Source: Escherichia coli (lineage in GTDB: Bacteria; Pseudomonadota; Gammaproteobacteria; Enterobacterales; Enterobacteriaceae). Taken from it: 64,000 nucleotides of DNA. Location of the stretch: assembly GCF_045037415.1 (NCBI RefSeq), contig NZ_CP173438.1; one strand, written 5' to 3'. Made by a program: the position numbers and the translations under genes. The notes under the pieces were generated by a model. It did not search any database and was not told the DNA's origin. It was given only the letters and a program-made list of their open reading frames with translations. This document shows, one piece after another, positions 26,918 through 28,886 of the stretch (positions are counted from its first letter, which is position 1; every line of letters begins with the position of its first letter).

Positions 26918-27814
26918 ATGGACATTTTTATTTCGAAAAAGATGCGCAATTTCATTTTATTAGCGCAAACCAATAATATTGCCCGGGCGGCAGAAAAAAT
27001 CCATATGACGGCTTCGCCATTTGGCAAAAGCATTGCCGCGCTGGAAGAACAAATTGGCTATACGCTATTTACCCGCAAAGATAATAATATCAGCCTCAAT
27101 AAAGCCGGACAGGAACTGTATCAAAAACTGTTCCCGGTTTATCAACGACTTTCTGCGATTGATAATGAAATCCATAACTCAGGACGTCGTTAACGAGAAA
27201 TTGTGATAGGCATAGATAATACTTATCCGACAATTATTTTTGATCAGTTGATTAGTCTCGGAGATAAGTACGAAGGCGTGACCATCCAGCCAGTTGAGTT
27301 CAGCGAAAATGGCGTTATCGATAATCTTTTTGACCGTCAGTTAGATTTTATTATCTCCCCACAGCATGTATCTGCACGAGTTCAGGAACTGGAAAACCTG
27401 ACTATCAGTGAACTACCACCGCTGCGATTGGGCTTTCTCGTTTCTCGCCGTTATGAAGGGCGACAGGAGCAAGAGCTGCTTCAGGAGCTGCCCTAGCTAC
27501 AAATGCGCTTTCAAAACCGGGCTAACTTCGAAGCAATGATTGATGCGAATATGCGTCCTTGTGGGATCAATCCAACCATTATTTATCGTCCCTATAGTTT
27601 TATGGCTAAAATCAGCGCCGTGGAGCGGGGACATTTTCTGACGGTGATCCCGCATTTTGCCTGGCGACTGGTGAATCCGGCAACGCTGAAATATTTTGAT
27701 GCGCCGCACAGGCCGATGTATATGCAGGAATATCTTTATTCAATCAGAAATCATCGTTATACCGCCACGATGCTTCAGCATATTGCTGAAGATCGTGACG
27801 GGACAAACCATTAA
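26918..27814 (+). pseudogene. ygfI: LysR-family regulator ygfI interrupted by two in-frame stop codons
   Basis: One continuous 299-codon frame split into three track ORFs (26918, 27203, 27503, all in the same frame) by TAA at 27191..27193 and TAG at 27494..27496; the HTH domain is intact. Confidence 0.7.
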
Positions 27815-28886
27815 CCCAGCATCGATCCGGTTGCAATTAAATTACGGTGTAAGTCGAAGACGTGGCTAAGATCGTGGTGAATATGTCCGCCGGACGCATT
27901 TTCCAGATATCGATGCAGATAATCCCGATACATGGGATGTGCACAATGATCAATGGTGGTGCGGATAACGTTGTTATACGGATCCTGTGCGCCAAATCCA
28001 CTGACCGCTTCGCTCCATAAATAACGTGCCGCACGCAACATGGCGACGTTCATAAACAGATCCATGCCAATGCCGAAGAAAAACGACAGGCGAGGGGCGA
28101 AGTCATCAATTTTCAGCCCGGCGGAGATTGCTGCTTTGATGTACTCAATCCTATCGGCGAGCGTAAATGCTACCTGCTGCACGCAGTTGGCACCCGCTTC
28201 ACCCATGTGGTAACCGCTGATACTGATGGTATTAAATCGCGGCATGTTGCCGGAACACCAGGCGATGATGTCTGCGATAATACGCATTGACGGTTTTGGT
28301 GGGTAAATATAGGTGTTGCGGCAAAGATACTCTTTGAGGATATCGTTTTGAATGGTGCCGGTCAGTTTATCGGATGTAACACCTTGCTCTTCTGCGGCGA
28401 CGATATAAAACGCCAGTACTGGTAGCACTGCGCCATTCATGGTCATCGAAACCGACATTTTATCCAGCGGGATCTGGTCGAACAGGACTTTTATATCTTC
28501 CACGGTGTCGATAGCGACGCCCGCTTTGCCGACGTCGCCCGCCACGCGTGGGTTATCGGAGTCGTAGCCTCGGTGGGTGGCCAGGTTACGGCGATAAAAA
28601 GCGTTGGACTCTTTTGCTGTCGAGAAACCAGCATACTGACGGATGGTCCACGGTTGGGCGGTATACATAGTGGCACGCGGGCCACGAACGTAGGGGGCAA
28701 ACCAGGAAGGGTACCCGTCACCTCCAGATTATCGAGATCGGCTTCGGTATACAGCGGCTTGATGGCGATCCCTTCCGCGGTTTGCTGAACCAGCGAGTCG
28801 ACAGTTTTCTCCCGACGGCTCAATTCCTTGTTGGCAAGCTGTTGCCACTCCTGCACGTTAGACATTATTTGCTCCGTAAAACGCAA
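27811..28886 (-). pseudogene. sbm: Remnant of methylmalonyl-CoA mutase gene sbm (scpA): frameshifted N-terminal third only; rest of the operon absent
   Basis: N-terminus MSNVQEWQQLANKELSRREKTVDSL... reads in one frame and continues ([27 protein letters not shown]...) in another after a G5 run at 28693..28697. The conserved segments AGQKGLSVAFDLA and [21 protein letters not shown] are missing, and the ORF ends after about 330 codons overlapping the ygfI stop. Confidence 0.75.

What the first reader, a model, noticed from the sequence alone, without database searches (positions are those of the whole stretch)
27811..28886. sbm (methylmalonyl-CoA mutase) reduced to a frameshifted remnant; argK-scpB-scpC apparently deleted
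The frame carrying the Sbm N-terminus (MSNVQEWQQL...LPGLPP) is broken by a G5 homopolymer at 28693..28697, consistent with a 1-bp deletion. The continuing frame lacks two conserved MCM segments, AGQKGLSVAFDLA between NLA and THRG, and [21 protein letters not shown] between AQDP and YNNV. The protein-level flanks are short direct repeats (LA...LA, QDP...QDP), which would be consistent with slippage deletions. After about 330 codons the sequence diverges and ends overlapping the ygfI stop. About 4.7 kb of operon seen in K-12 is missing, so the methylmalonyl-CoA/propionate pathway is inactivated in this genome.
Basis: partly seen in the sequence, partly recalled or inferred. Interest (0 to 1): 0.45.

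Follow-up and report, generated by a model that had tools for sequence, protein, structure and literature searches.

The report
Old sbm operon deletion remnant
This is the leftover stump of the "sleeping beauty" methylmalonyl-CoA mutase operon, lost by an old 4.3-kb deletion that about one fifth of complete E. coli genomes (including named B2 lineages such as ST131) share and that RefSeq already annotates as pseudogenes; the extra frameshift seen here is probably a sequencing error.

Summary
Window 27811..28865 (- strand) is a 1,055-nt fusion of the first ~1,019 nt of sbm/scpA to the last 154 nt of scpC. Against K-12 it lacks 4,376 bp: one 4,273-bp deletion (rest of scpA, all of argK and scpB, most of scpC), a 63-bp deletion, a 39-bp deletion and 1 bp. 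All three deletions sit at short direct repeats.

The interpretation needs three corrections. (1) The lesion is not private: 1,113 of 5,426 complete E. coli genomes share the architecture, and PGAP marks it as pseudogenes. (2) Typical ST131 genomes (EC958, JJ1886, H105) have G6, not G5, so there the remnant is an open, in-frame 351-codon chimera. G5 occurs in only 14 genomes, 11 of them from two sequencing projects, and 5 of the 14 are non-B2 strains with a full-length scpA. No G7 exists. This looks like a long-read homopolymer undercall next to a Dcm site (about 0.7). (3) About 4.4 kb is missing, not 4.7 kb.

The pathway is absent whether or not the frameshift is real. The finding is ordinary and already annotated.

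The parts
27811..28865 (-). Whole remnant: sbm/scpA 5' part fused in frame to the scpC 3' end. It is 1,055 nt here and 1,056 nt (351 codons, open) in typical ST131 genomes.
   Evidence: blastn against the K-12 operon; tblastn with ScpA and ScpC; PGAP pseudogene annotation of the identical sequence; Pfam PF01642 model positions 1-289 and 302-316 of 512 only.
28863..28865 (-). Native sbm/scpA start codon (ATG; MSNVQEW...).
   Evidence: Aligned to the K-12 scpA start at L003 451.
28693..28697 (-). C5 run on the gene strand (G5 on the + strand). It is one base shorter than the C6 of EC958, JJ1886, H105 and IAI39, and it causes the frameshift. A Dcm site (CCAGG on the + strand) lies 4 nt away.
   Evidence: Distribution across complete genomes: C5 in 14, C6 in 868, C7 in 0.
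28576..28587 (-). Junction of the 39-bp in-frame deletion (AACCTG|GCCACC). It lies between the imperfect direct repeats CCTGGCCGCC and CCTTGCCACC and removes AGQKGLSVAFDLA.
   Evidence: Present in 944 genomes. Absent from roughly 170 remnants that keep the 39 bp (1,113 minus 944; at least 60 seen).
27979..27988 (-). Retained copy of the 10-bp direct repeat ACAGGATCCG, the junction of the 63-bp in-frame deletion. It removes [21 protein letters not shown].
   Evidence: The two repeat copies are a perfect 10/10 match in the intact operon of IAI39. The deletion is present in every remnant inspected.
27950..27964 (-). Junction of the 4,273-bp deletion. It is a 15-nt microhomology: CCGCACCACCATTGA in scpA against CCGCACTATCATTGA in scpC. 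The crossover lies in the exact CATTGA at 27950..27955. Sbm residue 340 is joined to ScpC residue 447, in frame.
27811..27949 (-). 3' end of scpC (last 45 codons plus stop) in its native frame. It overlaps the srsR stop by 4 nt, as in K-12.
   Evidence: PGAP calls it 'acetyl-CoA hydrolase, incomplete, missing N-terminus'.
26918..27814 (+). srsR (ygfI) pseudogene with two nonsense codons: S92* (TAA, 27191..27193) and W193* (TAG, 27494..27496).
   Evidence: PGAP 'internal stop'. S92* occurs in 551 genomes and W193* in 844 genomes.
28866..29067 (-). argP-sbm intergenic region (upstream region of the lost operon). It is retained and differs from K-12 only by a few substitutions and a T8-to-T7 run.
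   Evidence: alignment.

Best explanation
The region is a dead remnant of the scpA(sbm)-argK-scpB-scpC operon.

1. In an ancestor of the lineages that carry it (the named examples are phylogroup B2), after the split from phylogroup F, a 4,273-bp deletion occurred between a 15-nt microhomology in scpA and one in scpC. It joined Sbm codon 340 to ScpC codon 447.
2. A 63-bp deletion between two 10-bp direct repeats lies only 14 nt upstream of that junction. It is found in all remnants inspected and may belong to the same event (inferred).
3. Later steps in this lineage were a 39-bp repeat-mediated deletion (polymorphic among remnant carriers), srsR S92* and then srsR W193*.
4. All three deletions happen to keep the frame. 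Typical ST131 genomes therefore carry an open 351-codon chimera. It holds only about 60% of the mutase barrel domain and no B12-binding domain, so it cannot be a mutase.
5. The G6-to-G5 change that gives the frameshift in this window is the last and least certain step. It is most likely a long-read homopolymer undercall next to a Dcm-methylated CCAGG (about 0.7). Otherwise it is a very recent slippage in a sequence that was already dead.

Either way the succinate-to-propionate (methylmalonyl-CoA) pathway is absent from this genome.

Shown: the breakpoints, the repeats, the distribution and the domain content. Inferred: the slippage mechanism, the order of events and the artefact status of the 1-bp change.
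For: Breakpoints and repeats:
- blastn against K-12 and direct reading of the junctions.

Shared allele:
- 1,113 of 5,426 complete genomes carry the argP-remnant-srsR architecture in one piece, and 4,276 keep at least 80% of the operon.
- PGAP marks the identical DNA as 'methylmalonyl-CoA mutase family protein, incomplete' plus 'acetyl-CoA hydrolase, incomplete' in EC958, H105 and others.
- Carriers include named B2 lineages (my knowledge of their typing): ST131, APEC O18, an ST80 strain, MP1.
- IAI39, which I know as a phylogroup F strain, has the intact operon.

Loss of function:
- Pfam matches only PF01642 positions 1-289 and 302-316 of 512, with no B12-binding domain.
- No ArgK or ScpB is encoded in the window.
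- The remnant-carrying genomes listed have a single place matching the operon.

Relaxed constraint:
- Polymorphisms among the remnants are 15 nonsynonymous to 16 synonymous, against 4 to 18 for the K-12-to-ST131 (H105) differences.
- Independent frameshifts occur in other remnants, for example KKo003.

Frameshift as artefact:
- The window differs from EC958 by 2 SNPs and this single indel over 49.2 kb.
- C5 is in 14 genomes, C6 in 868 and C7 in 0.
- 11 of the 14 come from two projects.
- 5 of the 14 are non-B2 genomes with full-length scpA, flagged 'frameshifted'.
- One is a different remnant haplotype that keeps the 39 bp.
- Of 47 homopolymers of 6 nt or more in 50 kb, this is the only one within 4 nt of CCWGG.
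- 6 of 7 other contigs that carry the post-frameshift ORF show further homopolymer contractions within 2 kb.
Against: On the artefact sub-claim:
- The window has no other indel in 49 kb, so the assembly is otherwise clean.
- One short-contig public assembly (SRR11464003) shows C7 at the site without other errors. Real length variation of the tract therefore exists or is at least possible.
- No reads could be examined.

On neutrality of the remnant:
- The fraction of nonsynonymous polymorphisms (0.48) is below my neutral expectation of 0.69 (one-sided p = 0.013).
- All three deletions preserve the frame.

On the phylogroup statement:
- Phylogroups were not typed. 'B2' rests on named strains and sequence types and on one F genome with an intact operon.
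Confidence: 0.92

Rival explanations
1. The G6-to-G5 change is a real, recent replication-slippage mutation in a subclone of ST131, adding one more lesion to a pseudogene that was already dead.
For: - It sits in a 6-nt mononucleotide run, a classic slippage substrate.
- The window is otherwise free of indels relative to EC958 over 49 kb.
- Eight ST131-type complete genomes share it and are identical over 2.3 kb.
- One public assembly has C7 at the site with no neighbouring errors.
Against: - The same contraction appears in at least three unrelated backgrounds: the ST131 remnant, a remnant that keeps the 39 bp, and full-length scpA of non-B2 strains.
- It is concentrated in two sequencing projects, 11 of 14 genomes.
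- Only contractions are seen in 5,426 complete genomes, never expansions.
- Most other contigs with it carry further homopolymer contractions nearby.
- The run is the only one of 47 that abuts a Dcm site.
Confidence: 0.28
2. The in-frame Sbm(1-340, minus 13 and 21 residues)::ScpC(447-492) chimera of 351 codons is kept by selection and has acquired some new role. On this reading the remnant is not simply junk.
For: - All three deletions preserve the reading frame.
- The ORF is open in most remnants sampled.
- The exact 351-aa product is recorded on at least 1,000 contigs.
- The nonsynonymous fraction among remnant polymorphisms is below my neutral expectation (0.48 against 0.69, p = 0.013).
- The upstream intergenic region is intact.
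Against: - It has a truncated barrel (about 60% of PF01642) with two internal segments removed, and no B12-binding domain.
- The nonsynonymous fraction is far higher than on the K-12-to-ST131 comparison (15:16 against 4:18).
- Several radical replacements occur at residues that are otherwise conserved among the sequences compared (G to S, G to R, D to G, Y to C).
- Independent frameshifts occur (KKo003).
- The 39-bp segment is present or absent among remnants with no sign of constraint.
- Few substitutions are expected to create stops over this divergence: P(stop) is about 0.03 per substitution.
- Some 'remnant-internal' synonymous variation could be ancestral or imported by recombination.
Confidence: 0.04
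3. The missing 4.3 kb is an assembly collapse in this genome, and the operon is really intact.
For: None found.
Against: - The identical junction is present in 1,113 complete genomes from many laboratories and platforms, including EC958 and JJ1886.
- The junction lies in a 15-nt microhomology, far too short to collapse an assembly.
Confidence: 0.005

Closest known systems
E. coli K-12 'sleeping beauty mutase' operon scpA(sbm)-argK(meaB/ygfD)-scpB(ygfG)-scpC(ygfH)
   Same: - Same chromosomal position between argP and srsR/ygfI.
- The retained parts are about 97.5% identical in nucleotides (1,192 of 1,222 aligned bases).
- Same start codon, upstream region and scpC stop/srsR overlap.
- The operon encodes a B12-dependent mutase, its GTPase chaperone, a methylmalonyl-CoA decarboxylase and a propionyl-CoA:succinate CoA transferase, and is described as silent in K-12 (PMC5512728, which cites Haller et al. 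2000).
   Different: - 4,376 bp are missing.
- Only Sbm residues 1-340 (minus 34 internal residues) and ScpC residues 447-492 remain.
- No argK and no scpB.
- The frame is broken in this window.
The pseudogene pair annotated by NCBI PGAP in ST131 reference genomes (e.g. EC958 EC958_RS16215 and EC958_RS30540)
   Same: The sequence is identical apart from one base of the G run. PGAP calls the two pieces 'methylmalonyl-CoA mutase family protein, incomplete, missing C-terminus' and 'acetyl-CoA hydrolase, incomplete, missing N-terminus'.
   Different: The window has G5 instead of G6. Its counterparts (e.g. A1.S1.126) therefore carry the extra note 'frameshifted'.
Short-homology (slippage / illegitimate recombination) deletions that produce bacterial pseudogenes
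   Same: Each of the three deletions is bounded by a direct repeat of which one copy is kept: 6-15 nt for the 4,273-bp deletion, 10 nt for the 63-bp deletion, and 8-9 of 10 nt for the 39-bp deletion.
   Different: Nothing unusual. The only curiosity is that all three preserve the frame, which has about a 1-in-27 chance if the three are independent.
Homopolymer-length errors of long-read-only assemblies near methylated motifs
   Same: - It is a single-base contraction of a G/C run 4 nt from a Dcm site.
- It recurs across unrelated strains within sequencing projects.
- It is accompanied by other homopolymer contractions in most other contigs that show it.
   Different: This window shows no second such error in 49 kb. 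The sequencing platform of the source assembly is unknown to me.

Membership tests
Functional methylmalonyl-CoA mutase (Sbm/ScpA type) | Sequence homology to the MCM catalytic domain (Pfam PF01642) | tested here: met
   PF01642 E = 1.7e-113 on the repaired 351-aa ORF. tblastn gives ScpA 1-343.
Functional methylmalonyl-CoA mutase (Sbm/ScpA type) | Complete catalytic barrel domain | tested here: not met
   Only model positions 1-289 and 302-316 of 512 are matched. In addition, 13 and 21 internal residues are deleted.
Functional methylmalonyl-CoA mutase (Sbm/ScpA type) | C-terminal cobalamin (B12)-binding domain | tested here: not met
   No such Pfam hit. ScpA residues beyond 343 are absent from the whole window.
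Functional methylmalonyl-CoA mutase (Sbm/ScpA type) | Uninterrupted reading frame | tested here: not met
   In the window the frame is broken at 28693..28697. It is open in G6 relatives, but they are truncated all the same.
Complete succinate-to-propionate operon (scpA-argK-scpB-scpC) | All four genes present | tested here: not met
   argK and scpB are absent and scpC is reduced to 154 nt. The remnant-carrying genomes listed have a single matching place.
Unitary pseudogene / gene remnant | Syntenic with an intact orthologue in related genomes, and truncated | tested here: met
   Same argP...srsR context as K-12 and IAI39, which have the intact operon. The breakpoints are mapped.
Unitary pseudogene / gene remnant | Relaxed selective constraint after inactivation | tested here: inconclusive
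   Remnant-internal polymorphisms are 15 N to 16 S, against 4 N to 18 S for K-12 versus ST131, so constraint is relaxed. The nonsynonymous fraction is still below my neutral expectation (0.48 against 0.69, p = 0.013) on 31 sites from 7 haplotypes.
Repeat-mediated (slippage-type) deletion | Direct repeats at both ends in the undeleted sequence, with one copy left at the junction | tested here: met
   This holds for all three deletions. The 10-bp repeat is perfect in IAI39.
Homopolymer sequencing artefact (for the 1-bp change only) | Recurs in unrelated lineages and clusters by sequencing project | tested here: met
   14 genomes carry it. 11 come from two projects and 5 are non-B2 genomes with full-length scpA.
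Homopolymer sequencing artefact (for the 1-bp change only) | Contradicted by accurate reads of the same isolate | not testable with these tools
   No read data are available.

The most novel reading that the evidence does not exclude
The 351-codon Sbm'-'ScpC chimera, open in most remnant genomes because all three deletions are in frame, is expressed from the retained sbm upstream region. On this reading it is weakly maintained by selection for a function unrelated to mutase activity.
Probability: 0.04. Interest if true: 0.45.

Novelty: already known. Interest (0 to 1): 0.08.

Why it matters
The biological weight is small.

- Metabolism: the strains that carry the remnant, including the pandemic clone ST131, cannot run the B12-dependent succinyl-CoA to propionyl-CoA route that K-12 encodes. 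K-12 itself barely expresses it (PMC5512728). This is a useful line for strain-specific metabolic models and a clean lineage marker.
- Quality control: a G6 run 4 nt from a Dcm site is miscalled as G5 in several otherwise good complete genomes. This creates 'frameshifted' scpA calls even in strains whose operon is intact.

Tried and rejected
In the sampled rows, every genome with the 39-bp junction carries the remnant, and genomes with intact scpA align only up to the junction.
- A 63-bp deletion in an intact operon: ESDR8 looked like a candidate, but its roughly 62-bp deletion lies elsewhere, at scpA nt ~1768-1810.
- Deletion of a G from K-12-like CCGCCC: this was my first reading of the frameshift. 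The alignment with ST131 genomes and IAI39 showed the true precursor is a C6 run.
- Clade test for the G5 carriers: I tried the window's two SNPs against EC958. The one tested (52722, prfB) is private to EC958, so it gave no information.
- Literature: four full-text searches for a description of the deletion in B2 strains found nothing relevant. Hits for 'mcmA' and 'sbm' were microcin M, sbmA or sbmC. The SrsR paper does not mention the operon.
- Technical: only the first new locus after each script run reached the Python sandbox. Several comparisons were therefore done with DNA alignment, and EC958 was fetched twice.

Full report
WHAT IS THERE. The window is E. coli with the gene order yggE - srsR(ygfI) - [finding] - argP - rpiA - serA. 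On the minus strand, 28865..27811 aligns to the K-12 operon scpA(sbm)-argK-scpB-scpC in three collinear blocks. Against K-12 (locus L003 = NC_000913 3060400-3067500) four differences in length account for everything:
- (a) One base is missing in a C run (window 28693..28697, G5 on the + strand).
- (b) 39 bp are missing (L003 736-774).
- (c) 63 bp are missing, between two copies of ACAGGAYCCG (L003 1368-1377 and 1431-1440).
- (d) 4,273 bp are missing, between CCGCACCACCATTGA in scpA (L003 1455-1469) and CCGCACTATCATTGA in scpC (L003 5728-5742).
The total is 4,376 bp, leaving 1,055 nt. tblastn with the four K-12 proteins finds only ScpA 1-343 (in two frames) and ScpC 443-492 in the whole 64-kb window. 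Nothing matches ArgK or ScpB.

Each statement holds.
- The G5 run is at the stated coordinates and breaks the frame after LPGLPP.
- Both small deletions are flanked by direct repeats at the DNA level. For the 63-bp deletion these are 10 bp, 9/10 identical in K-12 and 10/10 in IAI39. For the 39-bp deletion they are CCTGGCCGCC and CCTTGCCACC.
- The last 45 residues are ScpC's own C-terminus in its own frame, and the stop overlaps srsR as in K-12.
- Corrections: about 4.4 kb is missing rather than 4.7 kb; scpC is not wholly deleted (154 nt remain); the switch to ScpC comes after Sbm residue 340.

HOW WIDESPREAD IT IS.
- A 2.3-kb query spanning srsR, the remnant and argP is covered in one piece in 1,113 of 5,426 complete E. 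coli genomes.
- 4,276 genomes keep at least 80% of the K-12 operon.
- The remaining ~37 include independent losses, such as an IS1-associated truncation in strain MB51.
- Carriers include EC958, JJ1886 and H105 (ST131), APEC O18, an ST80 strain and the mouse commensal MP1. I know these as phylogroup B2 lineages.
- IAI39, which I know as phylogroup F, has the intact operon with an intact srsR.
- In every remnant inspected the 4,273-bp and 63-bp deletions occur together. Remnant lengths are 1,095, 1,056 or 1,057 nt.
- The two junctions are only 14 nt apart, so a single complex event is possible. This is an inference.
- NCBI's PGAP already annotates the DNA as two pseudogene fragments: 'methylmalonyl-CoA mutase family protein, incomplete' and 'acetyl-CoA hydrolase, incomplete'.
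- Four full-text literature searches found no paper describing the deletion. The public annotation nevertheless makes it known.

LATER DECAY STEPS.
- The 39-bp deletion is present in 944 genomes. Roughly 170 remnants therefore still carry the segment, and at least 60 were seen directly.
- It occurs on two haplotype backgrounds. Each matches its own undeleted counterpart at the A/G site inside the repeat: ST131-type with VTB96929v, HM670-type with EC36. That suggests recurrent repeat-mediated deletion or recombination among remnant carriers. I did not resolve which.
- The neighbouring regulator srsR carries S92* (551 genomes) and W193* (844 genomes) in this window. VTB96929v has only S92*, so S92* probably came first in this lineage.

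THE FRAMESHIFT.
- Over 49.2 kb the window differs from EC958 by two substitutions and one indel, and that indel is this base.
- Over 25 kb it is identical to dozens of ST131 genomes apart from a single one-base length difference; the EC958 comparison shows that difference is this base.
- ST131 genomes, VTB96929v and IAI39 have C6 at the site. K-12 has CCGCCC and other remnant haplotypes have CCACCC.
- Among the complete genomes, exact-word searches find C6 in 868, C5 in 14 and C7 in none.
- Of the 14 with C5, eight are 'UID...' isolates from one Bangkok project and three are from one Olsztyn project.
- Five of the 14 are non-B2 strains whose otherwise full-length scpA is consequently flagged 'frameshifted'.
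- One is a different remnant haplotype that keeps the 39 bp.
- In a wider collection, the ORF that gene callers make downstream of the frameshift (285 aa) is recorded on 223 contigs.
- Seven places carrying it were read. Six show C5 together with other homopolymer contractions (T5, A6, T7, A5, C4, G3 runs) within 2 kb. One (SRR11464003) shows C7 and no other error.
- Of the 47 homopolymers of 6 nt or more in the 50 kb compared, this is the only one within 4 nt of a Dcm site (CCAGG). The other three G/C 6-mers are 53-742 nt from one.
- My reading: recurrence in unrelated backgrounds, clustering by project and contraction-only direction point to a context-specific long-read undercall. I put this at about 0.7, and at about 0.28 that it is a real recent slippage. 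Reads are needed to decide.
- The question has no bearing on function, because the operon was already gone.

IS THE REMNANT ANYTHING MORE THAN JUNK?
- With G6 the remnant is an open 351-codon ORF, or 364 codons where the 39 bp are kept. All three deletions preserve the frame.
- Pfam matches only model positions 1-289 and 302-316 of 512 in the mutase domain and finds no B12-binding domain. Mutase activity is therefore excluded on established knowledge of the fold.
- Among seven remnant haplotypes there are 15 nonsynonymous and 16 synonymous polymorphic sites, against 4 and 18 for K-12 versus ST131. Constraint is clearly relaxed.
- The nonsynonymous fraction (0.48) is still below my spectrum-adjusted neutral expectation (0.69; one-sided binomial p = 0.013).
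- With 31 sites, possible ancestral polymorphism and recombination, I treat this as inconclusive.
- Independent frameshifts (KKo003, +1 G) and free presence or absence of the 39-bp segment argue for neutral decay. I give a functional chimera about 0.04.

MECHANISM AND CONSEQUENCE.
- The best-supported account is short-homology (slippage or illegitimate recombination) deletion in an ancestor of the remnant-carrying lineages, followed by slow neutral erosion of the stump and of srsR.
- The K-12 operon converts succinyl-CoA via methylmalonyl-CoA to propionyl-CoA and is regarded as silent (PMC5512728, which cites Haller et al. 2000).
- From my own knowledge, E. coli does not make B12 de novo.
- Loss of a rarely used, cofactor-dependent pathway is unremarkable.
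- SrsR is described as a stationary-phase stress regulator in K-12, with no stated link to the operon (PMC9181523).

VERDICT. The feature is an already-annotated, lineage-wide pseudogene remnant. The one element private to this sequence, the frameshift, is probably an assembly artefact. Interest is low (0.08).

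Noticed in passing
window 26918..27814 (+); stops at 27191..27193 and 27494..27496: srsR (ygfI), a LysR-type stationary-phase regulator in K-12, is a pseudogene here with two nonsense codons. S92* occurs in 551 complete genomes. The exact 45-mer around W193* occurs in 844 genomes, including O157:H7 strains that keep the intact sbm operon. The W193* allele is therefore either homoplasic or has moved between distant lineages.
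   Followed up: partly
window 28693..28697; loci L013, L014, L015 (positions ~320 of each): The same one-base contraction of the C6 run appears in full-length scpA of unrelated non-B2 genomes (UID2309220031, B1.H1.1, B1.H1.18, UID2309220003, HS-02). They come mostly from the same two sequencing projects as the remnant cases, and PGAP flags scpA as 'frameshifted' in the three I inspected. It is probably a systematic basecalling error beside a Dcm site and is relevant to quality control of RefSeq pseudogene calls.
   Followed up: partly
window 28576..28587; L004 and L005 (~1800-1840): The 39-bp deletion is polymorphic among the remnants (944 of ~1,113). It sits on two haplotype backgrounds, each matching its own undeleted counterpart at the A/G site in the repeat. 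This suggests it arose more than once or spread by recombination.
   Followed up: partly
L012 (NZ_CP073946.1, strain MB51) 4001..5507: An independent loss of the operon in a K-12-like background. scpA is cut after 576 nt next to an IS1A element, with only a helix-turn-helix fragment left before yggE.
   Followed up: no
L019 (NZ_CM169472.1, strain ESDR8): A non-B2 genome with a full-length operon that is decaying in its own way: a deletion of about 62 bp at scpA nt ~1768-1810 (flagged 'frameshifted'), an internal stop in meaB and an internal stop in srsR.
   Followed up: partly
L006 (NZ_CP091682.1, strain KKo003) ~1750: Another remnant lineage carries its own +1 frameshift (CAAAAGAG to CAAAAGGAG). 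It also has a 891-nt srsR that PGAP annotates as intact.
   Followed up: no
L021 (Logan SRR11464003 contig, ~575): This public assembly has C7 at the homopolymer with no other indel in 2 kb. No C7 exists among the 5,426 complete genomes.
   Followed up: no
hit H64 (NZ_CP016625.1, O157:H7 FRIK944): The operon span is 74 bp longer than in K-12, and scpC is annotated only as 'acetyl-CoA hydrolase/transferase family protein'. This suggests an insertion or duplication in scpC.
   Followed up: no
window 30054..30332 (+): A 92-codon ORF holding the C-terminal part of a LysR-type substrate-binding domain lies between argP and rpiA. It is the counterpart of the K-12 pseudogene yqfE. RefSeq annotates it as a 76-aa protein (WP_000545308.1) in ST131 genomes.
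   Followed up: no
window 16691 and 52722: These are the only two substitutions against EC958 in 49 kb. At 52722 (prfB) the window carries the common allele, found in 4,874 genomes, so EC958 holds the private variant. Position 16691 was not examined.
   Followed up: partly
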